A stretch of DNA of 64,000 nucleotides from Dictyostelium discoideum (lineage: Eukaryota), in the NCBI GenBank assembly GCA_000004695.1, contig CM000153.2, positions 3,968,001 through 4,032,000 of the forward strand, written 5' to 3'. A program made the translations under genes and the position numbers. Position 1 is the first letter of the stretch. The number at the start of each line of letters is the position of its first letter. Positions 27,640-43,861 of the stretch are shown piece after piece. A model generated the notes under the pieces. The model searched no databases and was not told where the DNA came from. It was given only the letters and a program-made list of their open reading frames with translations.

Positions 27640-28823
27640 TTACCAAAATTTAATATTAATATTTTTATAATCTAAAATAAAAGCTAATAAACATAAAGCA
27701 AAAGTATAAGAAGTAATGATAATCATTGATTGTTCAACTGGTGCATAAATTGTTTTCATTGAGAAATTAATTAAACCAGTTAAGATGTTACCTAACAAAA
27801 AGATGAATAGTTGATTACGATTGATTGATTTTGCAATTACAGATGCATTATGATTACCAGTGATCAATGTAATGAGTATATTTATTGAGAAATTGAATAA
27901 ATTTATTGATAGAATTGCCAATACATAACCTAAATTTGCCATTCTTCTTGAAGTTTTGTCAATATAGATTTCACATAAAATCCAAAGAATATAGAAAACA
28001 ATTGAAGAGATTAATAATTTAGTTGCAAATTTTCTCCATTCTGTCAAGCTTGATCTAACTTTAAATAATTCTGTACCGATTTTAGTACCAATTAAATAAA
28101 TTGCTAAATAACCAACAAAACTACAAATACCTTCTTTATTCATTGAAATTAAATTATCACGTGGATGATTGAGAATATAATCTGTTAATCCAAAACTATT
28201 CAATAGGAATTGATATACACAAATGAGTACTACACCTAAAATCGCTGAAATATTTGCATTAAATTTTAAGAATGCTAAAGAGATTGAAACAAAACCTAAT
28301 GTAAAAAAGAAATTCCAATGTAATCCATACTCTGAAACATGTTCTTGATAATTTATTGATTTTGTTAATATCATTCTAACAAATCCTAATATCATTAATG
28401 GTGCTTGTGCTTTAACTTGATGCCACATTAATGAACTTCTACTTAATACTTGTTGTTGTTGTTGTTTTAAAGCGGATGATGATGATGATGATGATGATGA
28501 AGTTTTATTTATTTTATCATTATCGTCTTCTTCCTCTTCTCTTTTCTTTTTTTGTTGTTTTTCAATTAAAGATGATCTTGATTGTCTTGAAACTAAAGCA
28601 CCTGATAATACAACTGAACCAACGCCAATATCCATTAATGAGATACCATAAGTTTCAGTTTTACCTAATCTTCTTGGGAAAACTTGAAAATCAACTGCTA
28701 AAATACAAATACAAGTTGCTGCCATTACAAATGCTCTATATTCTTCAAGAAATCCTTTTCTCATTGAATTTAAATTTAATAATGTTTCTTTTGGATTTTT
28801 AAAATAAATTGTAACATTTTTTC

Positions 28824-28861
<38 letters not shown>

Positions 28862-29117
28862 CTAATAATTAATAATAAAATAATAATAAAAAAAATAATA
28901 AATAAATAACTTACTGTGCAAACATTGGAACTACTAAACATGTAATAAGCATACCAACAATTAAAAATGGTGTTAATTCTGTAAAAGTGATTGCTGATAT
29001 AAATGGTACTATAATAAAAAAAAATTCTAATATAAATCTGAGTGCCAATGGTAATGGGAATTTGTCATTGTTGAAAAATGTTGCAAATACTACTCTTTGA
29101 AATAATACAGATATCTA

Positions 29118-29148
<31 letters not shown>

Positions 29149-29179
29149 AGAAAAGGTGTTAATTAAAATGATAAAATAA

Positions 29180-29216
<37 letters not shown>

Positions 29217-29332
29217 AAAAATAAAGATAACATTACTGGCATTAAAGTTAAAATGAAACATGTTTCAAAAAAGGTAGATCCATCATTACCTGAAACAAAA
29301 TTTTGATGATCATTTTTATATTGATCATCCAT
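27640..29332 (-). CDS. GPI-anchor inositol acyltransferase GWT1/PIG-W. Three exons: 29332..29237, 29114..28915, 28822..27640, about 492 aa.
   Basis: Exon 1 is MDDQYKNDHQNFVSGNDGSTFFE (yeast Gwt1 KEDFVTGLNGGSITE). ILAVDFQVFPRRLGKTETYGISLMDIGVG matches Gwt1 [42 protein letters not shown] is also conserved. Introns are GTAATG..AATAG and GTAAGT..TATAG. Confidence 0.8.
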
Positions 29333-29805
29333 TTTTTTTTTTTTTAATATGCAAGGTGTGAAGTTTTAAAAAAAAAATAAAAAATAAAAAATTATAATGA
29401 ACATTTTTTTTTTATCTTTTTTTTTTTTTTTAATTTTTTTTTTTTTTAATTTTTTTTTTATTTTCCCATATAAATTAAAGTGGTCAAAAAAAAAAAAAAT
29501 GAATATTAATTCTTATGTTAGAAATTTGTGAAATATTGTAATGACAAAATTATTAATATTTTTAATAAATAATAAATAAATAATTCCTTATTTTTTTTTT
29601 TTTTTTTTTTTTTTTTTTATTTTTTTTTAACATGCCCTAATTAAAAAAATAAATTGGGCTTAAAAAAAAAAGAATAAAATGGGGATTAATAAAATCGAAT
29701 TGGAAGGCATTGAAGACGTCATCCTCTTAAAACCGGGCTTAAAAAAAAAGTTTAAAAATTTGATAAAAAAAACGGCTTGCGAAGTGTTTTTTTATTTTAC
29801 GAAGT

Positions 29806-29841
<36 letters not shown>

Positions 29842-30260
29842 ATTGGATAGAATTAAAATTTTAATATTCCATTTTTTTTTTTTTTTTTATTTAAAAATAA
29901 ATATTTCCAAATAGTAGTAATAAATAAATAAAAAAATAAAAAATAAAAATAAAATATATTTAAAAAAATAAATTAATAAAACTAAAAATAGTAAAATAAG
30001 TTGGAAAAAAAAATAAAAAATAAAAAAATAAAAAATTAAAAATAAAAAAACTGCAAAGGACATAAAAAAACAAAAAAAAAAAAAAAATAAAAAAATAAAA
30101 ATCGATCTTTATAATAATTTATATATTTTAATCCCTAAACAAAAATAATAGTTAATACGAAAAAATAGATAATTTATTTAGTAATAATTTTTTTTTAAAA
30201 ATATAAATAATAAGAAAAAAAAAGAAAAAAAAAAAAAAAAAAAAAAATTAAATACAATAA

Positions 30261-31466
30261 ATGGATATAGTAAATGATTTAGTATCATCAATATCATCAA
30301 TATCATCAGAAGCAGCAGAAGAAGAAGCAATAAGAGATGAATTAAGAAATGATAAAGGTGGTTTAATAGCAGGTATTTTCGTATTAACACTAACAGCATC
30401 ATTTGTGCCATGGTTTTTAACAAAAGCAAAGATTACAAATTTAGTTTCAGTTGTTTCAATTTTAACATGTTTATCAGCAGGTGTTATCATTGGTGCTGGT
30501 TTTAATCATATCTTACCAGATGCAGCGGAAGAATTTCAATCATATGTAGAGGCAGTGGCACCAGATAATAAATATGGTGATTTCCCATTCGCTCATACAA
30601 TTACAATTGTAACAATGTTTGCATTAATTTGTGTTGATAAAATTTTAGTTAGTGGTGGTCTAGATGGTGAAGCCGACCACAATCACATGGACTTAAGTCA
30701 ACATAACCATCCAAGTCCACATGCTGCTGGTGAAATTGATTTAAATATTTATACAAATGGTGACGACGACGACGATGATGTAAATGAAGATCAAGAAGAG
30801 GATAGCACAAAAGATGATGAAAAAGAACATGGTCATGGTCATGGTCATGGACATGGTCATAATAGTAGTAATAGTAGTAGTAATGGTCATGGACATGGTT
30901 TAAAAAAAAAGAAAAAATCAAAAAAAGAGCATGGTCATGGTCATAATCATGATCATAGTTCAAATGGACATAGTCATAAGGATGAGAAGGATAGTGAGAA
31001 AGTAAATGTTTCAAGTAAAAGTAAAGCATGGGTATTCTTAGTTGCCCTATCACTTCATTCAATATTTGATGGATTAGGATTAGGATCAGAGACACAAAAA
31101 GATAGTTTCTATGGTTTATTAATCGCAGTTTTAGCACACAAATTTTTGGATGGATTGGTATTAGGTATTGCAATTAAATATGCTTATTTCTCTTTCAAAT
31201 TCAGTTGTATTGCATTGGTATTCGCAGCAGCTATGACACCATTAGGTATTGGTATTGGTATGGCTATATCAAGTGCCTATGAATCAAGTACTGATGCCTA
31301 TTTAGTTAAAGGTATCATTCTATCAATTACATGTGGTTCTTTTATTTATATCTCTCTCATTGAATTATTACCATCTGGACTTTGTCAAAAAGGTTGGCCA
31401 AAATTAAAATTGGCCGTTGCTTTCCTTGGTTATTCCGTTATGGCAATTCTAGCTCTTTGGGTTTAA
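30261..31466 (+). CDS. ZIP (Zrt/Irt-like) family metal transporter, 401 aa
   Basis: A His-rich cytosolic loop (HGHGHGHGHGHNSSN...HGHGHNHDH) is followed by the ZIP TM signatures HSIFDGLGLG and HKFLDGLVLG. Confidence 0.8.
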   Translation: MDIVNDLVSSISSISSEAAEEEAIRDELRNDKGGLIAGIFVLTLTASFVPWFLTKAKITNLVSVVSILTCLSAGVIIGAGFNHILPDAAEEFQSYVEAVAPDNKYGDFPFAHTITIVTMFALICVDKILVSGGLDGEADHNHMDLSQHNHPSPHAAGEIDLNIYTNGDDDDDDVNEDQEEDSTKDDEKEHGHGHGHGHGHNSSNSSSNGHGHGLKKKKKSKKEHGHGHNHDHSSNGHSHKDEKDSEKVNVSSKSKAWVFLVALSLHSIFDGLGLGSETQKDSFYGLLIAVLAHKFLDGLVLGIAIKYAYFSFKFSCIALVFAAAMTPLGIGIGMAISSAYESSTDAYLVKGIILSITCGSFIYISLIELLPSGLCQKGWPKLKLAVAFLGYSVMAILALWV

Positions 31467-31679
31467 AAAAAAAAATATCTTATTTAATTAGATCGATTGG
31501 AAAAAGACAAGAAAAAAAAAAAAAAAAAATTTAAAATTAAAATAAATTTTAAATAATATAGTAGTTATGAGTAATAACTTCAATATTATTTTATTGTATA
31601 ACTTGTAAACATAACAAAATAATAAATTTAGAATAGTTGTGTATTTTTTTTTTTTAAAAGTTTATTTATAGTTGGTTGG

Positions 31680-31711
<32 letters not shown>

Positions 31712-31752
31712 CTATTATTATTATTATTTTTTATTTTTTTTTTTTATTTTAT

Positions 31753-33300
31753 TTAATCTTCATCATCATCATCATCATCAATAACTCTTCTTTTAACTTT
31801 CTTTGTTGATACAATTAAATCTTCATCTTCATCTTCATCATCATCAAAATCTTGTTTACGGGATTTATTATTTTTATTGTCATTACTATTTTTATTTTCT
31901 TTTTTCTTTGATTTATTATCACCATCGGAATCACTTTCAGATTCACCACTTTCAGAACCATCATCATCAGAACTATCGGAACCATCATCATCACTTTCTT
32001 TGTAATCATCATCTTCCTCATCTTCATCATCGTCGACAACGAAATCATCACCTTTTTCATTACGATAACTATCGTAATCATCGTCATCATTTTCTAGATA
32101 AGAGGCGGTTAGAGAACCACTTTTACCACCTCTACCTCTATTAGGTCTATAAGAGTCATCCTTTTGCTTCTTTTTCTCTCTCAATGCATCCAATAATTCT
32201 TTTTCACGTTTTTCTTTCTCTTTCTCTGGATCCAATGTAGTGTGAATTGATTTGATTTTACTGACTTTTACAGTTCTCTTTGCAACATTCTCAGAGAGAC
32301 GTTGATGAACTTTACTCTTAATATTGGTTGGTCTAATACTTAATCTTGAATCGATTTTACCCTCACACTCTATGAAACCATCTTGAGATGAGTAAACATA
32401 GAATTGTTCATTCTGTAATGGTTGTTCCTTTATCTCCAATACTTCATTACCAATATATAGATGTGATGATCCATCTGACCATGTCACCAATCTTGTATTA
32501 CTCTCTTTTGCTGGTCTACCATTTAAATCCAATCCCCATCTCCATCTAATCACTGATTCAACATTAAATTTACTCTTTTCATCACCATTCATTGCTTCTT
32601 CATCTTCAAATGTTATTGGATCAAATGGTTTTGGTTGAATTCCTAAAATATTTAATAATTTTAATTTCATAATCTAAAAAAAATAAATAAAAATTAATAT
32701 TTTTTTTTTTTTTTTCATTTTATATTAATATGTACAATAAATTCTTTTTTTTCTTACCTTTTGTGCTGGTAAAACATTTGAAGTTTCTATATGAGTTAAT
32801 GTGATTGGGTCACGAATTAATTCAGGTTCTTCTTCTTCCTCCTCTTCACCTGCACCAGTTGCAAAATCAAGGTTTTCATTAGCATCTTCCATTGTTTCAT
32901 CCTCTTCTGTTGAATGACGATTTTTATTTTTTTTACTCTTTTTTTTCTTTTTTTTATTACTATATTCTTCATCCTCTTGATCTTCTTGTTGTTCTTCTTG
33001 ATCTTGATCTTCTTTATCTTTTTTACTTTTATTTTTTTCATTATCACTATTTACATTATCATTTTCTTCAAGATCTTTATCACCAAATAAATCATCATCA
33101 TCATCATCACCATCATTGGCATCATTATTATTATCTTCATCATTTTTTGTTGTTACATTTTTATCTTGATTTTCATTTTCTTCCTCTCTATTATTATTAT
33201 TATTATTATTTTCATTGTCGTTTGTAGTCTGTTTTGAAGATTTATCAACAAATGTACCTTCTAAAATTTGTCTTTCATCCTCTTCTCCAAAATCATTCAT
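31753..33300 (-). CDS. leo1: Leo1, Paf1 complex subunit. Two exons, 33300..32758 and 32673..31753, about 487 aa.
   Basis: The Leo1 domain is RWRWGLDLNGRPAKESNTRLVTWSDGSSHLYIGNEVLEI. The N- and C-terminal tails are extremely acidic. The intron is GTAAGA..TTTTAG, 84 nt. Confidence 0.75.
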
Positions 33301-33510
33301 TCTAAATTAATGTATTTTGAAAGAAAAAAAAAAAAAAAAAAAAAAAAAAAGAGTTTGTGTATGTATATATATATATATAATATATATATGAAAAAATAGT
33401 TATTGTTAATTTAAGTTTTTAAGAAAATAAAAAAAATAAAAAAAAAATTTGAAAATTGAAAAAATTGAAAAAATTAATTTTTTTTTTTTTCCAAAAATAT
33501 AAATGTTTTA

Positions 33511-33544
<34 letters not shown>

Positions 33545-33618
33545 AAATGCGAATGTGATCAATTGGAAATTTGATTTGTTTTTATTATTAATTTTTTATT
33601 TTTTATTTTTTTTTTTAT

Positions 33619-34456
33619 TTAATGATTATGGGCATTTGTGATATGAGTTGCATTATTATTATTAATATCTGAAGCAGTACGTGGTATGGTAACTTCATGA
33701 TTTTCTCTATTAACATAACTGAGATTATTATTCTCTCTATAACGTGTTGAAGTAACTGAATCAACATTGTAACCTTGATTAAGACCAATACGATGTGATT
33801 CACGATAGTATTCAGATGGAACGTGATCTTTAATATCAGGAATTGGTTCAGCCTTGTAATTGCTTCTATAATCTGCATATAAGGTAGATTTCTTCAATTC
33901 CATATGTCTTCTCCATGAAATGAATGCGGATATCATACCAACGAGCACTAATAAACCACCCAAAACTGACCCAACTATAATACCAGCCAATGTACCACCT
34001 GCAATACCATTACCTTTAGTATTCCATAGGTTTGTACCATTCATTGGATATAAACCAATATTTGATCCAGCAATATGTCCATTCTGGAATGCCTGTGCAT
34101 TTGTAGCTGAATAAGAGTTATATCCAACTATTTAAAATAAAAAAGTTAGTACTAATTTTTTTTTTTTTTTAAATTATATTTTAATTCTATAAATAATTAT
34201 TGTTTTTTTAAATTTACATACGTTTATAACTACCAGGTGTTCTTGCTAAATTTCCACTTTGAATTGTATTAATATTTGTTACAAAATCTGTTGGAACTGA
34301 TTGAGATTGTTGAAGACCAAATGTTGACCCAATATTTCTAACCCAATTATTATAAATTAAAACACTTTGGGAATTATCTAAATTAGTCTGAGCTAATGCC
34401 ATTGATGCTCCATAAAGCATACCAACTATACCAACACAAATTGCTTTTGATATCAT
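33619..34456 (-). CDS. Small type-I membrane protein. Two exons, 34456..34222 and 34127..33619, about 247 aa.
   Basis: A signal peptide (MISKAICVGIVGMLYGASMALAQT) is followed by a GTATGT..AAATAG intron. One Gly-rich TM helix is present (GIAGGTLAGIIVGSVLGGLLVLVGMISAFISW), then a cytosolic tail. Confidence 0.55.
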
Positions 34457-34587
34457 TTTGTGTTTTTTTTTTATTTTTATTTAATTATATATATTATTTT
34501 TTTATTTTATTTTATTTTATTTTATAATAATTAAATAATTCGATCTGATTAAATTTTTTTTTTTATTATTTTTATTTTTTTTTTTTT

Positions 34588-34626
<39 letters not shown>

Positions 34627-34757
34627 AATAAATAAATAAATAAATATATAAATAAATAAATATTTTTTATAAATTATAAATGTATTAAGGAAAAGAACTA
34701 AAAAAAAAAAAAAAAAAATAATTCAACTATAATAGTGTTTGAAAAATACCACAATAT

Positions 34758-34793
<36 letters not shown>

Positions 34794-35197
34794 CTAAAAA
34801 AGGTAAATAATTAAATAATTTTCAAATTATTTCTATATCAATATAAAAAAAATTAAATTGAAATTAAAATTGGGTATAAACAAAATGTTTAATATATTTT
34901 ATTTAAATTAAATTTTTAAAAAATAGTTACCACATTTCCAATTCGATTTTACTTTTCATAAAAAAAAAAAAAAAAAACATATAAAAACATAATAACACAC
35001 TTAATCAAGTTCAAAATAAAATATTTTACCAATTATTAAACCACACACCACACTTTCAATGTTTCAATAATTTGGAATATCTATTTTAATAAATTTAATT
35101 TCTTTCATATCAATAATTCTTTCTCAATATTTTATTATTTATCACCCACTTCTTTCGGAAATAGAAATTGTTGTTTGAGTAACCTTAATTTTAAAAT

Positions 35198-35237
<40 letters not shown>

Positions 35238-35427
35238 TTTTTTTTTTTTTCTTAATTATTTTTTTTTTAAAACAACATAATCGATAATAAAGATAATAAC
35301 ATAATAAAAATAAATAATAATAACCGAACCAAAAAAAAAAAAAAAAAAAAAAACTTAAAAAAAAAAATCTAATATTAATTTATTTATTTATTTATTTATT
35401 AATTTATATATTTTAAAAATAATAAAA

Positions 35428-36991
35428 ATGAGATTATTTTTATTATTAGTAACACTTTTCAGTGTTACAACTCAAATATATGCAGAATTTTCAGAAGATC
35501 AAATGACAAATATTGTATCTGCATTCAATAAACTTAGATCAACAGTTACACCAAGAAATTTAGGAGATTATAATCAAGTTTCATGGAGTGATATTCTATA
35601 TGCAAATGCATTAACTCAAACCCAAACTTGTCAACGTAATTCACTTTATTCACCAGCCGGTTCAGCAGGTTTATATGGTGAATCTTATGCATATTTCGAT
35701 AAAGATCCATCTGTAAATGATGTAAGTATCTAATTTTTAATAATATTAATTATATTTAAATTTTAAAATATTAATTATTTTTTTTTTTTTTTTTTTTTGA
35801 AAATTCTGGAAATTATTAATAAACAGGTTCAAGATAAACTATCCGCTGGAAGATTATATTATAATTATGATGATACCCAATGTACTGGAAATCATGATTG
35901 TACTCCATATTTAAATATTATTTGGAACACAACGTAAATATTTTATTTACTTTAAAATAATTTTTTTTTTTTTTTTAAAACATTTTATATTAATAATTTT
36001 TTTTTTTTTTTTTTAATTAAAAGTACACAAGTAGGATGTTCAAAAAGTGAATGTGATGGTAAAACATTAGTAGTTTGTAATTATAATCCACCAGGTAGTT
36101 TTTCAGGTATTCCACCATACACTGCAAGACAACATGCTGATTTAACAACAATGAGTTATGAAGAATGGCCAAATAAAATTGTGAATTTAAATCAAAGATT
36201 AGTTAGAAGAGATGACGATCATATTTACACTGCAAGTGTCCCAACTGATGGATCATTCGATTGGAGAGATAATGGTGTTGTTGGTTTCCCAAAGGATTCT
36301 TCGAATTGTGCCTCTGGTTGGGCTTTCACTGCTGCTGGTATTTTTGAATCAAGAAGTGCTATGAGAACTAGACATAGATATGATTATTCCGCTCAACAAC
36401 TTATAGATTGTATTAATGTTTGTATTATTATTGTTATTATTTTTATTATTTTTATTATTATAATTTACCAAACTAACAAAAATTTTATTTTAGTTCTCAA
36501 ATTTTTCAATTGGAAATTATACAAAATGTAGTAGATTCAGTGGTGAATTAAATAAAGCATTAATGTATGCCCAAGCATATGGTCTCCAAGCTACTAGTAC
36601 CTATCCATATGTTGGTGCTTCATCAATAGGTTGTTCATATAATCAATCATCAATTGCTGTTGAAGGTGGTGATGTTGAATATTCACAAGTTGGTAGAGAT
36701 TCAATCGTTGAAAAATGTAGAAAACAAGGTCCAGTTGGTGTTGGTATTTATGTTACCAATGAATTCTTATATTATGCTGGTGGTATTTTCGAATGTAACA
36801 ATACATTGATCGATAATGCAAACATTAATCACAATGTATTATTGGTTGGTTATAATGAAAAAGATAATTACTATATCATTAAAAATAATTTTGGTCGTAC
36901 TTGGGGTGAAAATGGTTTTGCTCGTATTACTGCCGATGTTAACAAAGATTGTTTAATAGCTAAAAATCCAGCTTATTCCATCCAAATTTAA
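35428..36991 (+). CDS. Secreted CAP/SCP/PR-1 domain fused to a papain-like (C1A) domain lacking the catalytic Cys. Four exons: 35428..35721, 35827..35933, 36024..36417, 36494..36991, about 430 aa.
   Basis: A signal peptide is present. CAP motifs include PYLNIIWNTTSTQVGC, LVVCNYNPPGSF and GESYAYF. The C1 domain has FDWRDNGVVGFPKDSSNCASGWAFTA where papain has NQGSCGSCWAF, so Gln19 becomes Ser and Cys25 becomes Gly. The His and Asn are retained (NHNVLLVGY...IIKNNFGRTWGENGF). Introns are GTAAGT, GTAAAT and GTTTGT, each ending in AG. Confidence 0.7.
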
Positions 36992-37006
36992 ATTAAAATT
37001 AAAAAC

Positions 37007-37102
<96 letters not shown>
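37007..37102. repeat. (AAT)n microsatellite of about 32 units in the 3' flank of the CAP-papain gene
   Basis: Read directly. Confidence 0.9.
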
Positions 37103-37185
37103 TTAATTAAAACTAGAAAAATAAGAAATTAATTGAACAATTTTTTTTACCACGGTAAAAAAACAGAAAGAAAAAAAACAAAAAG

Positions 37186-37235
<50 letters not shown>

Positions 37236-37482
37236 ATTAATTATTACAAATATCTTCTAAAACATAAATAAAAAAAAAAGTCAAAAAAAAAAAAAAAAAA
37301 AATTTGTTGTATTTATTTTAAAATAATAATTATCTAATGAGTCATAAATAAACAAAATAAATTTATTTTGTTTTTTTTTTTTTAGACTTTATTTTTAATT
37401 TTCATTTTTTCGTTTAAGAAAATTTTTATTTTTTTTTAATTTTATTTTCCTTTTTTTTTTTTTTTTTTTGTCGAGTTTTTAA

Positions 37483-38839
<1,357 letters not shown>

Positions 38840-39480
38840 AATAAATTTTATTAAAATATATAATTAAATTATTTTTTTTCTTTTTATTCCTTTTTTTTTT
38901 ATTTTTTTTTTTTTTTTTAATTTTAATTAAAAGCAAATAATTAATTTTTTATTTACAAATTAAAAAAAAAATAACTCAAAATAATAATAATAATAAAGAC
39001 AAAAAAAAATAAAGAAATAAAAAATAAAACTGTAATATATTAATTTTGATATAAGTGGATCAAAACAATAAAGGTTGGTAGATCTTAAAAAATTGAATCA
39101 ATTCAATTTGGTGTTTTATTGAGAGAATATTACAAATTGTAAAATATGGATCGAATTTCATATCACCAAAATATGGATATATGACTGATAGTATTATTGA
39201 GTTTAAAGTTTTACTTGCTAATGGAGAAATTGTAAATTCAAATCCATTTAATAATAATAAAAACAATAAATAATAATAATAATAATAAAAATAATAACAC
39301 ATTAAATACTTTTGTTATACAAATTAAGAAATTTTATTTTAAATTTTTTTTTTTTTTTTAGTTTTTTAAATATAATATAATATTCATTATTTGATATCAA
39401 TTAAAAAAAAGAAAGAAAAAGAAAGAATTAAAAAAAAGAATAAAAAAAAAATATATATGGTTTTTTTTTTTTTTTTTTTT

Positions 39481-41238
39481 TTACTCAGTTGTACTTAAAT
39501 GAACTTTTTGAGCTCTACCTGATGGATCTTGTGAGGCACCCCAAGTTGGAATCCAACGTTGAACGGTTTCCATACATTCTTTACCTGGATAGATGGCTTC
39601 AAACATTTTTCTGTAGAGGAAAGCTTCTTTGGTGGTTGGAGTATCATCTGGGAAGTAAGATTCACGTTTAGCAAACTCTTCATCGGAAACTTCATTCTCG
39701 GCATTTTCCTTTAAGCCATCAATCCAACTATAACCGACACCATCAGAGAATTGTTCTTTTTGTCTCCAAAGGACAGATGATGGAAGGTATGGTTTTTCGC
39801 CTTCTTTAGTTTCAAAAGCTTTTCTGAGGATATATTTCTCCATTCTCTTTTTACCTTGATCATCATGACAAACTTTGTGAGATGGGTCAATGTTCATGGC
39901 GACATCAAGGAAACGTTGATCAAGGAATGGTACACGAACTTCAACACCCCAAGCAGCGGTGGATTTATTAGCACGAAGACAATCAAAACTGTGGAGAGCT
40001 TTGATACGACGACAACATTCAACATGGAATTCATTGGCATCTGGAGCATTGTGGAAATAGAGGTAACCACCAAAGATTTCATCAGAACCTTCACCGGATA
40101 AAACCATTTTAACACCCATAGCTTTAATTTTTCTAGAGAGGAAATACATTGGAGTGGAAGCTCTAATGGTGGTGACATCATAGGTTTCCAAATGTTTAAT
40201 AACGTCTGGTAATGCATCAATACCTTCTTGAACTGTGAAATGATATTCATGATGAACTGTTTGAAGGTAATCGGCAACATCACGTGCAGCTTTAAGATCT
40301 GGGGCATCCTTTAAACCAATACAGAATGAATGAATTCTTGGCCACCATGCTCTTGATTTTTCATGATCTTCAACTCTTTGTTCTGCATGTCTACTAACGA
40401 TACTTGCAACCAATGATGAATCTAAACCACCTGATAATAAGACACCATATGGTACATCACTCATCATACGTGATACAACTGCTTGTTCAAATGCTTCTTT
40501 AATTGCTGGTAATACTTGTTCTTCACTCTTTAAAACTCCACTTGGTGAATCACCCATAATCCAGTTTGGTTTATAATATCTTACAAACTCTTTAGTTTTA
40601 CTTGAAAAATAGTGACCTGGTGGGAATGGTTGGAATTTATAACAATCATCTTTAATTGCTTTCATTTCTGATGAAAACCAAATTGAACCATCTTTATGCC
40701 ATCCAATATATAATGGTACTAAAAAAATAAAAAAATATATATTATTAATAATTTAATTGATTAATTGACTAATTGATTGATTGATTTGTTTTATTTACTT
40801 ACCAACACCAATTGGATCACGAGCAGCTAAAAATGAATTTGCTTTTTTGTTATAGACAACAAATGCAAAATCACCATCTAACATATGAACGAAATCATCA
40901 CCTTTATCTTCATAGAGATGTAAAATTGGTTCACAATCACTATGGGTTTTAAAGGTATGTTTACCAGTGGCAACCAAGTCTTCTCTTAATTTCTCGTGGT
41001 TATAAATTTCACCATTTACAGTGAGGGCAATAGTTTCATCTTCATTCAATAATGGTTGAGCACCGTTCTCTAAACCGACAATAGCTAAACGTTCATGGGT
41101 GAGAATTGAATCGGATGATTGATAAATACCGTTCCAATCTGGACCTCTATGTCTTAATCTTGATGATAATGAAAGAGCCTTCTTTCTTAATTTGCTAGCT
41201 TCCTCTAATGAGTTTAAAATTGCTAAAATACCACACAT
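39481..41238 (-). CDS. asns: Asparagine synthetase (glutamine-hydrolysing). Two exons, 41238..40803 and 40718..39481, about 557 aa.
   Basis: The N-terminal nucleophile is MCGILAIL (Cys2 of the class II glutamine amidotransferase domain). The PP-loop is SGGLDSS. The C-terminal synthetase domain is intact. The intron is GTAAGT..TTTTAG. Confidence 0.9.
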
Positions 41239-42232
41239 TTTCTTTTTTTTTTTTCTTTTTTAATTAAATTAAATAATTACCCTATGCATATGAAAAAATT
41301 ATTTTTAGGAAATAAAAAAAAAAAATTTGATAATTAAAAAAAAAATAAAAAAAAAATAAAAATATCACAAAAAAAAAAAAATCAAAAAAAAAATCCCAAA
41401 AAAAAAAAAAAAAAGTTAATATTAATTTTTAGGAGTAAAAAAAAAGTGAGGTTATTTAAACATTTTTTGACTTTTATTTTTAACCACCTCTTTTTTTTAA
41501 AAAAAAAAAAAAAAACCAACAAATAATAATTTTTAGTATAATACTTACAATTTATATAAATTGTTTTGTTGCTTATTTTTTTTGTTGAGTGAATGAAAAA
41601 AGAAAAAAAAAAAAAAACTTATTTATATGGTGCAATTGAGTAAAAATTGATAAAAAAAATAGAAAAAAATCTTTTTTTTGATTTTTTCTTTTGATTTTTT
41701 TTTAAAATTTTCAAAAAAATGAAAAAAAAAAATGAAAAAAAATAATCTGTTAATGACGATTTTTATAAAGATATTTTTTGGTATTGGTGTTGGTATTATT
41801 CATTTGGGGAAATGGTGAAAAAAAAAAAAAAACATCGAAATTCTAATAATTTTACAAAAAAAAAAAATCTATTTTAAACTGGTGATATCATCACTTCGCT
41901 TCCAGTGTTCTTTAAAAAAAAAAAAAAAAAAAAAATATATCCTATATACCAAAGTGATCATATTATTTTTTTATTTTTTCTGAAAAATTTATAATATCTT
42001 TTTTTTTTCACTAAACCAAATAAAAATAATCATATGAATTGTCATATGAAAATTTTTAAAATGAGGGTATAATATCTTATATGTATAAATTTTTTTTTAA
42101 AATGTAAATATTATATTATATTTAAAAAAATTTTATTTAATTTTTTTTGTATTATTACCATTTTTTTCTTTTTTTTTACTTATTTTTTTTTTCTTTTTTT
42201 TTTTTTTTTTTTTTTTCTTTTAAAAAATTAAA

Positions 42233-43861
42233 TTAAATTATTAAAACTGATAAAATAGAAATTAAAATAATAGTAAATAAATTGAAAATTAATTTTGAAG
42301 TATTATTATCATTATCAGCTGGTTCTTTTCTGGCACGAACAGTGATTTTATCAACATAAACTGTTGGTTGATCTTCATTAGCTTTTAACCAAAATCCATC
42401 GAAAACTTCATCAGAGTCATCAAAAGGAACAATAATTTTAGTCCAAGTATTAGCAGCAATTGGTTTGCCATTGAGTTGTTCGACCGAATAGGTTTGTTTC
42501 ACTTCATTGGTGTGATCAGGTTTCTTATGTAATATTTGAAGATTGAGATCTTGGCTACCCATTTCACCACCATGGATCCAAAATTCCAATTGTTTGTGTA
42601 CATTTGTTTGAATACAGCCATAGCACATGAAATGTAAAGATTTCTCTTTGATGGGATTAAATTTAATCGAAAATTTTCCTTCACATGGAATTACCTCGGA
42701 GGAGTTTATAACGGGTTTTGAAGTGCTCCAATCATCGGCCCAATGGGTAATCTTATCATTGTAGATATCAAAGGTATCAGAGAATTGAAGTGGTCTACCA
42801 TTGTTTTTTGCCAATCTTTCTAAATGATTTTTATAACCTTGACCAAATGTAGTTGGATCACCTTCATAATTTTCAATGAGTGATGGGACATTACAATCAC
42901 CGACCAACCAAGACCAAGCCAAATAATGAACACCATTGTCGTCACAATATTGGAGGAAATCTTTAAGGAAATCATGTTGACAATCCTTTTGACCAGTTTC
43001 AGTAGCGATCATTGGAATTTGATCAAAAATTGGTTTAATTTCAATATCCCAACAACCTTTGGATTTACATTGATTGAATTCGTAAGCATGTAAAGAAGCG
43101 GCAATTTGTTGTGGTGATAGAGTATCTCTTGGCATGTAATCAAAGAATTTCAAAAATGAAGAAGCATATTGAATTCCACTCATCAATATGATATTGGTCG
43201 CACCAGTTGATCTAACAGCCTCGAGGAGTTGTTGCATTCCGACTGTACCGTAATCTTGATTGGTGCATTGTGTACCATCTTTCCAACATTGCCATGCATC
43301 GTCATCATTGTATGCATTGTCGTTTGGGTATGGTTCATTGTAGAGATCAAAGATAACACGTGAATTATCTTTAAAATCTCTAGCAACACTCTTCCAAAAA
43401 TCTACACTACTAATATTGTTTGGCATTGGAATTTGTGCTTTTGCTTGTAATCCATTCTTTGAACTCCAATGAAGATCCAAAATTACTGCCAAATTATGAT
43501 CACAAAGCATCTCTACATATGATTTTATTGTATCTCTATATCCATTGCCATACCATAATGCCTCATTTCCATGATTACCCAACCAACAATCTTCATTCAA
43601 TGGTACACGAATTGCATTCAATTTCCAGCTTCTAAGTAATTCAATATGTTCTGAATCACATGGTCCATCGAAAACTTGTGCATTTTGAACACACATATAT
43701 TCTGTACCAGGACGATTTACTCCTCTAAGCATTATTATTTCATCATCAGAGTTATATATTGTATTTCCTTTTATATGTAATCCATGGGTTGTTTGTTCTC
43801 TTGAATATATATTTTTAATTAAAAAACATATAAAAAATATTAAACTAAATTTTATTTTCAT
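42233..43861 (-). CDS. Glycoside hydrolase family 5 endoglucanase (cellulase) with a C-terminal beta-rich extension and a hydrophobic tail, 542 aa
   Basis: A signal peptide is present. The GH5 acid/base is in FDLYNEPY and the nucleophile in IATETGQ. The C-terminal 180 aa form a putative carbohydrate-binding region ending in a hydrophobic segment (LIFNLFTIILISILSVLII). Confidence 0.8.
   Translation of the reverse strand: MKIKFSLIFFICFLIKNIYSREQTTHGLHIKGNTIYNSDDEIIMLRGVNRPGTEYMCVQNAQVFDGPCDSEHIELLRSWKLNAIRVPLNEDCWLGNHGNEALWYGNGYRDTIKSYVEMLCDHNLAVILDLHWSSKNGLQAKAQIPMPNNISSVDFWKSVARDFKDNSRVIFDLYNEPYPNDNAYNDDDAWQCWKDGTQCTNQDYGTVGMQQLLEAVRSTGATNIILMSGIQYASSFLKFFDYMPRDTLSPQQIAASLHAYEFNQCKSKGCWDIEIKPIFDQIPMIATETGQKDCQHDFLKDFLQYCDDNGVHYLAWSWLVGDCNVPSLIENYEGDPTTFGQGYKNHLERLAKNNGRPLQFSDTFDIYNDKITHWADDWSTSKPVINSSEVIPCEGKFSIKFNPIKEKSLHFMCYGCIQTNVHKQLEFWIHGGEMGSQDLNLQILHKKPDHTNEVKQTYSVEQLNGKPIAANTWTKIIVPFDDSDEVFDGFWLKANEDQPTVYVDKITVRARKEPADNDNNTSKLIFNLFTIILISILSVLII

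What the first reader, a model, noticed from the sequence alone, without database searches (positions are those of the whole stretch)
35428..36991. CAP/PR-1 domain fused to a papain-like domain with the catalytic Cys mutated to Gly
A signal peptide is followed by a full CAP domain and then a C1A papain fold. In the papain fold, the oxyanion Gln and the nucleophile Cys sit in the sequence NCASGWAF, against QGSCGSCWAF in papain. Both are substituted, to Ser and Gly, while the His and Asn are kept. This predicts a secreted, catalytically dead pseudoprotease tethered to a CAP domain. Such a protein could act as a decoy or binding protein. The Gly codon GGT is one transition from TGT. A sequencing error or strain polymorphism must therefore be excluded.
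Basis: partly seen in the sequence, partly recalled or inferred. Interest (0 to 1): 0.6.

Follow-up and report, generated by a model that had tools for sequence, protein, structure and literature searches.

The report
Conserved dead papain–CAP spore protein
This is a real Dictyostelium gene for a secreted two-domain protein (a PR-1-like CAP domain joined to a papain-like domain that lost its catalytic cysteine before the social amoebae diversified), switched on late in spore formation; it is an uncharacterised but fairly ordinary pseudoenzyme, not a sequencing error.

Summary
Window 35428-36991 (+) is a four-exon gene for a 430-aa protein: signal peptide, CAP domain (PF00188, E 2e-12), 50-residue linker, papain-like domain (PF00112, E 1e-41). 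Papain Gln19 is Ser226 and Cys25 is Gly232; His159 and Asn175 are kept (His378, Asn396).

It is DDB_G0286055 (Q54MB6), annotated "hypothetical". A sequencing error is excluded. Seven independent D. discoideum-group assemblies carry the same residues. Eight orthologues across Dictyostelia, out to Cavenderia fasciculata, have Ser at Gln19 and Gly or Ala at Cys25. All 20 active paralogues examined, including gmsA, keep Gln, Gly23 and Cys.

The dead clade is monophyletic (100/100), syntenic, and shares intron positions in the four species checked. It is under purifying selection: dN/dS is 0.15-0.25 overall and 0.08-0.19 in the papain domain.

Published data make it a top ChIP target of the sporulation factor SpaA. 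It is about 40-fold prespore-enriched and rises from under 1 to about 1300 expression units between 12 and 24 h.

Best reading: a non-catalytic secreted protein of late spore maturation. This is a new variant of a known kind, the papain-fold pseudoprotease. Minor corrections: GGT to TGT is a transversion, and the Gly codon is 36316-36318.

The parts
35038..35164 (+). Upstream regulatory region bound by the sporulation transcription factor SpaA. It has CA-rich boxes at 35038-35053 (AAACCACACACCACAC) and 35143-35149 (CACCCAC).
   Evidence: The published ChIP-qPCR primers 'G0286055p' match window 35044-35065 and the reverse complement of 35143-35164. The ChIP-seq summit is 364 bp upstream of the start codon. 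A similar CA-rich box occurs at -396 in D. firmibasis and -456 in D. dimigraforme.
35428..35721 (+). Exon 1 (codons 1-98): signal peptide (residues 1-19, 35428-35484) and the first part of the CAP domain.
   Evidence: ATG start and a GTAAGT donor at 35722. The exon length (294 nt) is identical in D. firmibasis.
35827..35933 (+). Exon 2 (107 nt): middle of the CAP domain.
   Evidence: Acceptor ..aaacag| and donor |gtaaat. The same 107-nt exon is found in D. firmibasis, D. dimigraforme and D. purpureum.
36024..36417 (+). Exon 3: end of the CAP domain (to residue 154, 36084), linker (residues 161-209, 36103-36249), and the first part of the papain-like domain (from residue 211, 36253).
   Evidence: The donor GTTTGT at 36418 gives ..DCIN|FSNFS.., which agrees with all orthologues. 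The AX4 RefSeq model uses a donor 15 nt further on.
36298..36300 (+). Codon TCT = Ser226, at the position of the oxyanion-hole Gln19 of papain.
   Evidence: Ser in 8 of 8 dead-clade orthologues; Gln in 20 of 20 active paralogues.
36316..36318 (+). Codon GGT = Gly232, at the position of the nucleophile Cys25 of papain.
   Evidence: Gly in 6 of 8 and Ala in 2 of 8 orthologues; Cys in 20 of 20 paralogues. The codon is GGT in four species.
36494..36991 (+). Exon 4: remainder of the papain-like domain (to residue 427, 36979), including His378 (36830-36832) and Asn396 (36884-36886), then the stop codon TAA.

Best explanation
The gene encodes a secreted, disulfide-stabilised, probably N-glycosylated protein made by prespore cells at culmination under the sporulation factor SpaA. 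Its C-terminal papain-fold domain cannot do thiol-protease chemistry. It lacks the nucleophile (Gly232), the oxyanion-hole Gln (Ser226) and the invariant Gly23 (Ala230). The 'GCNGG' substrate-binding segment is replaced by a longer, variable loop that carries glycosylation sequons. The fold has nevertheless been kept under purifying selection in lineages spanning Dictyostelia, out to Cavenderia fasciculata. It therefore most likely works as a non-catalytic binding or structural module, tethered to a PR-1-like CAP domain that has also lost most of its signature His/Glu residues. The likely place of action is outside the cell during spore maturation (spore coat or the matrix between spores).

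Shown: the architecture, the substitutions, their age and conservation, purifying selection, SpaA binding, and late prespore-specific expression.
Inferred: secretion, extracellular site of action, and a binding rather than catalytic role.
Unknown: the ligand.
For: - Domains and residues.
- Loss of the Cys abolishes activity: engineered Cys-to-Gly, Ala or Ser proenzymes appear among the PDB matches (2o6x reads NCGSGWAF; C150A pro-rhodesain and C26S pro-cathepsin H). XCP1 C161A has no activity (PMC10403534).
- Conservation: the 8 orthologues form a clade with 100/100 bootstrap support. Synteny Leo1 / small TM gene / this gene / PfkB kinase holds in three other species. Intron positions are identical in the four species checked.
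- Selection: dN/dS is 0.15-0.25 overall and 0.075-0.19 in the papain domain. Identity of the dead domain between species (91.8, 90.0 and 68.5%) lies between that of the two active paralogues.
- Secretory features: a hydrophobic N-terminus in all orthologues, 6 conserved Cys in the CAP domain and 6 in the papain-like domain, and 5 N-x-S/T sequons (132, 265, 268, 273, 315), three of them in the 265-275 loop.
- Expression (PMC5923282): ChIP-seq -log10 q of 69, 111 and 127, next to cotC, wacA, aqpA and cotA. Prespore enrichment is log2 5.33. The time course is 0.6, 0.3, 2.5, 5.3, 133, 1259 and 1316 at 0-24 h.
Against: - There is no direct evidence of secretion, localisation, glycosylation or any binding partner.
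- His378, Asn396, Asn377, the clade-specific invariant Ser226/Asp225/Pro223, and the near-invariant Asn379 form a conserved polar site where the active centre used to be. A purely structural role does not obviously require this.
- Expression starts at 16-20 h, later than the classical prespore-vesicle coat genes (cotA-C from 8 h). A prespore-vesicle or coat location is therefore not implied.
- No orthologue turned up from Acytostelium or Heterostelium. This could be a loss or a limit of the search.
Confidence: 0.6

Rival explanations
1. Regulator or decoy of the cysteine-protease system. The dead domain binds what active cathepsin-like enzymes bind (substrates, or cystatin-type inhibitors). 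It would thereby protect spore proteins or tune protease activity during dormancy and germination.
For: The papain fold, its three disulfides and the His/Asn pair are kept. The gene is expressed exactly when spores mature. Active paralogues with the same architecture exist in the same genome.
Against: The canonical substrate-binding elements are not conserved. Gly23 is replaced. 'GCNGG' is replaced by a variable loop modelled at pLDDT below 50 (268-280). Trp177 is Phe in group-4 species. No partner is known.
Confidence: 0.2
2. Neofunctionalised pocket. Removing the Cys and Gln side chains and gaining Asn379 created a new polar cavity around His378. This cavity binds a small ligand or sugar, or supports a different chemistry.
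For: Clade-specific invariant residues cluster at the old active centre: Pro223, Asp225, Ser226, Ala234, Asn377, His378, Asn396, with Asn379 in 7 of 8. The papain domain is the most constrained part of the protein.
Against: His and Asn are also retained in other inactive papain homologues, where they are thought to be structural (own knowledge). Five of 11 canonical active-site positions are invariant, against about 25% of the whole domain, which is not a striking excess. No coordinates were available to check that the residues form a single pocket.
Confidence: 0.12
3. The CAP domain is the working part (lipid or sterol binding, or a signalling peptide, as in other CAP proteins), and the papain fold is only a stable carrier.
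For: The CAP domain is complete, is modelled at pLDDT 86-96, and is closest to plant PR-1 (E 1.8e-12). All six Cys are conserved family-wide.
Against: The CAP domain evolves faster than the papain domain (dN/dS 0.18-0.26 against 0.075-0.19). Only one of the four signature His/Glu residues survives: Phe33, Glu85, Gly106, Pro125. The plant cleavage motif CNYD is CNYN here and varies among orthologues.
Confidence: 0.1
4. Artefact: a sequencing error, a strain polymorphism or a decaying pseudogene.
For: One base change (GGT to TGT) would restore the Cys codon.
Against: The residues are identical in 7 assemblies. There is Gly or Ala in 8 orthologues spanning Dictyostelia, together with the Gln19 and Gly23 changes. 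The ORF is intact, the introns are conserved, dN/dS is far below 1, and late expression is strong.
Confidence: 0.01

Closest known systems
[quoted passage not shown]
   Same: Same architecture: signal peptide, PR-1-like CAP domain, linker, C1A papain domain. Same conserved Cys pattern in the CAP domain. gmsA lies on the same chromosome, 10-12 genes away by locus-tag numbers. All belong to one dictyostelid family.
   Different: The paralogues keep Gln19, Gly23, Cys25, 'GCNGG' and the first CAP His (HNxxR). Many of them, including gmsA, have Pro/Thr-rich linkers. This gene has lost all of these and has a non-repetitive, partly conserved linker. gmsA is known only as a gamete-enriched, mating-type-specific transcript not required for mating (PMC4910948). 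This gene is a late prespore gene.
Soybean P34 (Gly m Bd 30K), a natural papain-superfamily protein without the catalytic Cys
   Same: A papain fold that lacks the catalytic cysteine and has no enzymatic activity (PMC2292165). That the replacement in P34 is Gly is from my own knowledge. Both are deposited in a dormant propagule (seed or spore).
   Different: P34 is an ordinary pre-pro-papain with a processed proregion and is stored in vacuoles. It has no CAP domain and arose independently in plants.
Other non-peptidase homologues of family C1A: Plasmodium SERA5, sponge silicatein, and a Cys-to-Gly domain in a Diorhabda beetle protein
   Different: Per my own knowledge, SERA5 and silicatein have Ser, which can still act as a nucleophile, and keep Gln19. 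None is fused to a CAP domain.
Plant PR-1 and its processing by the papain-like protease XCP1
   Same: The CAP domain here is most similar to plant PR-1 (9lyt, E 1.8e-12; P14a) and ends in a PR-1-like C-terminus, CNYNPPGSFSGIPPY. In Arabidopsis a papain-like protease cleaves PR-1 at CNYD to release a peptide (PMC10403534). The two folds that interact in plants are therefore fused in Dictyostelia.
   Different: The Asp of CNYD is absent (CNYN, CNFA, CNFY and others), and the fused protease domain in this gene is dead. Any functional parallel is speculation.

Membership tests
Peptidase family C1A (papain-like cysteine proteases) | Papain fold and significant match to Pfam PF00112 | tested here: met
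Peptidase family C1A (papain-like cysteine proteases) | Catalytic dyad Cys25-His159 | tested here: not met
   Cys25 is Gly232; His159 is kept as His378. The protein is therefore a non-peptidase homologue, not an active member.
Peptidase family C1A (papain-like cysteine proteases) | Oxyanion-hole Gln19, and Asn175 orienting the His | tested here: not met
   Gln19 is Ser226 (8 of 8 orthologues). Asn175 is kept as Asn396.
Peptidase family C1A (papain-like cysteine proteases) | N-terminal I29 (cathepsin propeptide inhibitor) proregion | tested here: not met
   No PF08246 hit. The profile-profile alignment starts at residue 208. The linker alone against propeptides gives E 0.42. A CAP domain occupies the N-terminal position.
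Peptidase family C1A (papain-like cysteine proteases) | Three conserved disulfides (22-63, 56-95, 153-200) | tested here: met
   Cys229, 263, 277, 312, 366 and 418 are at the expected places. All are conserved in the dead clade except Cys277, whose column is misaligned. Pairing is inferred, not observed.
CAP / CRISP / PR-1 superfamily (PF00188) | CAP domain sequence match and alpha-beta-alpha sandwich fold | tested here: met
CAP / CRISP / PR-1 superfamily (PF00188) | Conserved His-Glu-Glu-His tetrad of the putative active or metal-binding site | tested here: not met
   The residues are Phe33, Glu85, Gly106 and Pro125, so one of four is kept (alignment to PR-1; family table).
CAP / CRISP / PR-1 superfamily (PF00188) | Six-Cys pattern of PR-1-type CAP domains | tested here: met
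   Cys68, 117, 139, 144 and 152 are invariant, and Cys123 is at least 90% conserved, in 28 family members.
Dictyostelid gmsA-like CAP-papain family | Signal peptide, CAP domain and C1A domain in one chain, with full-length homology to gmsA | tested here: met
   Full-length single-stretch profile matches to dictyostelid proteins. Alignment and tree with gmsA and DDB_G0276111. tblastn of gmsA hits this gene at E 3e-15.
Dictyostelid gmsA-like CAP-papain family | Intact protease active site (Gln19, Gly23, Cys25, GCNGG) | tested here: not met
   Invariant in 20 of 20 paralogues and replaced in 8 of 8 members of this orthogroup. This gene belongs to a distinct, inactive subfamily.

The most novel reading that the evidence does not exclude
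The dictyostelid CAP-papain proteins may be a 'Rosetta-stone' fusion of two folds that work as a substrate-protease pair in plants (PR-1 cleaved by XCP1). On this reading, this ancient dead member has turned the old active centre (His378, Asn377, Asn379, Asn396, Ser226, Asp225) into a new ligand-binding or non-thiol catalytic pocket. That pocket would control spore-coat maturation or dormancy. It would make the protein a neofunctionalised pseudoenzyme rather than an inert relic.
Probability: 0.1. Interest if true: 0.65.

Novelty: new variant of a known kind. Interest (0 to 1): 0.35.

Why it matters
Catalytically dead papain homologues are already known, so the principle is not new. This one differs in three ways. 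The prodomain position is taken by a PR-1-like CAP domain. Inactivation predates the divergence of the sampled lineages, out to Cavenderia, yet the dead domain is the most constrained part of the protein. [quoted passage not shown]

This gives the Dictyostelium field a well-defined, uncharacterised, abundant late spore gene that can be knocked out and tagged easily. It also offers a natural comparison of active and dead paralogues with the same architecture in one genome, which is useful for studying how pseudoenzymes are retained. It does not bear on a long-standing open question.

Tried and rejected

2. Plant-type CAPE/CNYD processing motif. The CAP C-terminus resembles PR-1, but the critical Asp is absent and the position varies among orthologues.

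3. A second copy, or gmsA, inside the window. tblastn with this protein, gmsA and DDB_G0276111 finds only this gene.

4. Mapping papain subsites by adding papain to the family alignment. The result was out of register in several regions. Only motif-anchored positions were used afterwards.

5. Comparisons with D. purpureum for dN/dS. Synonymous sites are near saturation (pS 0.42-0.45), so those ratios (0.44-0.51) are not informative.

6. Looking for whether the linker or the CAP domain covers the cleft in the model.

7. Literature searches for Q54MB6, DDB_G0286015 and CAP-superfamily papers on Dictyostelium gave nothing specific.

8. The first AlphaFold run used a cathepsin-heavy alignment and gave a poor CAP domain (pLDDT 31-63). 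It was replaced by a run on the family alignment.

Full report
**What is in the sequence.** The window is AT-rich (22.7% GC) Dictyostelium DNA. Between 35428 and 36991 on the + strand, three ORF pieces join through three short AT-rich introns with GT..AG borders. The result is a 1293-nt coding sequence of 430 codons, with exons 35428-35721, 35827-35933, 36024-36417 and 36494-36991. Pfam finds a complete CAP domain (PF00188, residues 31-154, E 2.3e-12). It also finds a complete papain-family domain (PF00112, residues 211-427, E 1.3e-41). The N-terminus MRLFLLLVTLFSVTTQIYA|EF has the form of a signal peptide; this is read from the sequence.

In alignments to solved cathepsins, KDSSNCASGWAF lines up with the K-[ND]-Q-G-x-C-G-S-C-W-A-F motif. 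Papain Gln19 is therefore Ser226 (36298-36300) and Cys25 is Gly232 (GGT, 36316-36318). His159 and Asn175 are present as His378 and Asn396.
- The Ser lies just upstream of the quoted octamer.
- The Gly codon is 36316-36318.
- GGT to TGT is a transversion.

**Identity, and exclusion of an artefact.** The exact 430-aa protein is in NCBI as KAM9942211.1 (D. discoideum). The AX4 reference gene is DDB_G0286055 (XP_637918, Q54MB6), annotated only as hypothetical or 'Peptidase C1A domain-containing'. The AX4 model is identical except for five extra residues (VCIII) that come from a donor 15 nt downstream. All orthologues lack them.

All seven sequences of the 90% cluster come from separate assemblies, and all read DSSNCASGWAF. 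Orthologues were found in D. dimigraforme, D. firmibasis, D. purpureum, Polysphondylium violaceum, Tieghemostelium lacteum, Cavenderia fasciculata and one unnamed EukProt dictyostelid. In all eight:
- Gln19 is Ser.
- Gly23 is Ala or Ser.
- Cys25 is Gly (6) or Ala (2).
- Asn at position 158, His159 and Asn175 are invariant.

Orthology is supported by three lines of evidence. Gene order (Leo1, small membrane protein, this gene, PfkB-type kinase) is conserved in three species. Intron positions are identical in the four species checked. The clade has 100/100 bootstrap support. The loss therefore predates the divergence of all sampled dictyostelid lineages. A read pile-up is unnecessary.

**The family.** A profile search of 1.84 billion representatives, plus word-indexed searches, shows that signal peptide + CAP + papain is a multigene family. 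Every member whose source could be identified is a dictyostelid. D. discoideum has three members:
- This gene.
- DDB_G0276111.

By locus-tag numbers, gmsA lies 10-12 genes from this gene in D. discoideum and D. firmibasis. It is not inside the window. All 20 paralogues examined keep Gln19, Gly23, Cys25 and 'GCNGG'. Most have the HNxxR motif of CAP domains, and many, including gmsA, have Pro/Thr-rich linkers. The clade of this gene is the inactive sister group of the active ones.

**Selection.** Nei-Gojobori estimates were made among D. discoideum, D. dimigraforme and D. firmibasis:

| Region | dN/dS |
|---|---|
| Whole protein | 0.15-0.25 |
| Papain-like domain | 0.075-0.19 |
| CAP domain | 0.18-0.26 |
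| Linker | about 0.25 |

Comparisons with D. purpureum are saturated. Protein identity of the dead papain domain between species is 91.8, 90.0 and 68.5%. This lies between gmsA (93.7, 92.7 and 72.2%) and DDB_G0276111 (86.5, 80.2 and 69.8%). Constraint was therefore not relaxed after the nucleophile was lost.

**Structure.** An AlphaFold model built on the family alignment is confident (mean pLDDT 83.7, pTM 0.74). The CAP domain is at 86-96, most of the papain domain at 80-95, and the linker at 54-81. Only the loop 268-280 falls below 50.

The low-confidence loop is an insertion where the active enzymes have 'GCNGG'. In group-4 species it carries three N-x-S/T sequons. The CAP domain is closest to plant PR-1 (E 1.8e-12). 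It keeps only one of the four signature His/Glu residues: Phe33, Glu85, Gly106, Pro125.

**Expression (published data).** DDB_G0286055 appears in one searchable paper, on the sporulation transcription factor SpaA (PMC5923282).
- *ChIP.* The gene is among the strongest ChIP-seq targets. [quoted passage not shown] Binding was validated by ChIP-qPCR.
- *Bound region.* The qPCR primers map to window 35044-35065 and 35143-35164. They bracket two CA-rich boxes. The distal box is conserved in D. firmibasis and D. dimigraforme.
- *Cell type.* The paper tabulates RNA-seq values from Parikh et al. 2010. These give a prespore over prestalk enrichment of log2 5.33. For comparison, cotA is 5.45 and psvA is 5.52.
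- *Timing.* The time course is 0.6, 0.3, 2.5, 5.3, 133, 1259 and 1316 at 0, 4, 8, 12, 16, 20 and 24 h. This is a late, culmination-stage profile. It is later than the classical coat genes cotA-C and psvA, which are already high at 8 h.

**How it most likely works.** Without a thiol, without the oxyanion-hole Gln, and with Gly23 and the Gly-rich substrate-binding segment replaced, papain-type proteolysis is excluded. Engineered Cys-to-Gly, Ala or Ser proenzymes in the PDB, and the XCP1 C161A mutant, illustrate that this single change is enough.

The protein has the hallmarks of an extracellular protein: a signal peptide, twelve conserved Cys and glycosylation sequons. It is made in prespore cells just as spores encapsulate. 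I therefore read it as a non-catalytic binding or structural protein of spore maturation, with confidence 0.6.

The ligand is unknown. Several residues around the former active centre are specific to the clade and invariant (Pro223, Asp225, Ser226, Ala234, Asn377, His378, Asn396), and Asn379 is nearly so. This leaves room for a remodelled binding pocket, which I cannot explain. A conserved Leu193 followed by a basic residue and then an acidic run in the linker could be a processing site. That is inference only.

**Rivals.** Four were considered:
- A protease or inhibitor decoy is possible. The poor conservation of canonical subsites argues against it.
- A neofunctionalised pocket is possible, with no direct support.
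- CAP as the functional part, with the papain fold as a carrier, is made unlikely by the stronger constraint on the papain domain.
- An artefact or pseudogene is excluded.

**Comparison with known things.** The closest relatives are gmsA and DDB_G0276111. They share the architecture but have intact active sites.

The closest analogue is soybean P34, a papain-superfamily protein that lacks the catalytic cysteine and has no activity (PMC2292165). That the replacement in P34 is Gly is from my own knowledge.

Other Cys-to-Gly papain domains turned up in a Diorhabda beetle protein, in Anaeramoeba and in metagenomes. That search was biased by the shared SGWAF words.

In plants, a papain-like protease (XCP1) cleaves PR-1 (PMC10403534). 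The same two folds are fused here, but the cleavage motif is not conserved.

By the membership tests, this protein is a homologue but not an active member of family C1A. It is a CAP-fold protein without the CAP tetrad. It is a divergent, inactive subfamily of the dictyostelid gmsA-like family.

**Verdict.** It is a new variant of a known kind (papain-fold pseudoprotease). It is of moderate interest, mainly to those who study Dictyostelium sporulation and pseudoenzyme evolution.

Noticed in passing
window 36418-36432: The AX4 RefSeq model XP_637918 (435 aa) extends exon 3 by 15 nt (VCIII), using a GTTATT donor at 36433. All orthologues and the newer NCBI models use the GTTTGT donor at 36418 (430 aa). 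The reference annotation is probably slightly wrong.
   Followed up: partly
window 37007-37102: An uninterrupted (AAT) microsatellite of about 32 units starts 16 nt after the stop codon, followed by long poly(A) tracts. This is typical Dictyostelium 3' flanking sequence but a likely polymorphic marker.
   Followed up: no
window 35038-35053 and 35143-35149: CA-rich boxes (AAACCACACACCACAC; CACCCAC) sit in an otherwise almost pure A/T intergenic region. They bracket the published SpaA ChIP-qPCR amplicon. Similar boxes occur upstream of the D. firmibasis and D. dimigraforme orthologues, and a C-rich box in D. purpureum.
   Followed up: partly
not in window (D. discoideum chromosome 4; locus tags KAM9942199 vs KAM9942211; RB653_000462 vs RB653_000452): The active paralogue gmsA lies only 10-12 genes from this gene in both D. 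discoideum and D. firmibasis. This suggests an old local duplication with conserved linkage.
   Followed up: partly
proteins P0009 and P0069 (Tieghemostelium lacteum KYQ90541 and a EukProt dictyostelid): A further subfamily has two CAP domains in tandem before an intact papain domain (about 557 aa).
   Followed up: no
protein P0008 (Diorhabda sublineata XP_056633311), also P0013 (Anaeramoeba ignava), P0040, P0056: These are independent papain-like domains with Gly at the nucleophile position. The beetle protein has QGTCTSGWAF in a first domain followed by an intact QGICGSCWAF domain. The hits were favoured by the word-indexed search sharing SGWAF.
   Followed up: no
window 33619-34460 (- strand): This is a divergently transcribed neighbour encoding a small protein with a hydrophobic N-terminus and one predicted membrane span. 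It has no Pfam match. It is conserved in the same position in three other Dictyostelium species and shares the roughly 960-bp intergenic region with the SpaA-bound promoter.
   Followed up: no
residues 190-200 of the protein (window about 36190-36222): The linker has an invariant Leu193 followed by a basic residue (LVRR, LKVK, LKDR, LEAR, LKRR) and then an acidic run. This is a possible proteolytic processing site that would separate the CAP and papain domains.
   Followed up: no
window 27640-43861: The surrounding genes are unrelated housekeeping or secreted enzymes: GWT1, a ZIP transporter, Leo1, a PfkB-family kinase, asparagine synthase and a GH5 cellulase with a signal peptide (42233-43861, - strand). 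There is no functional clustering with the finding.
   Followed up: yes
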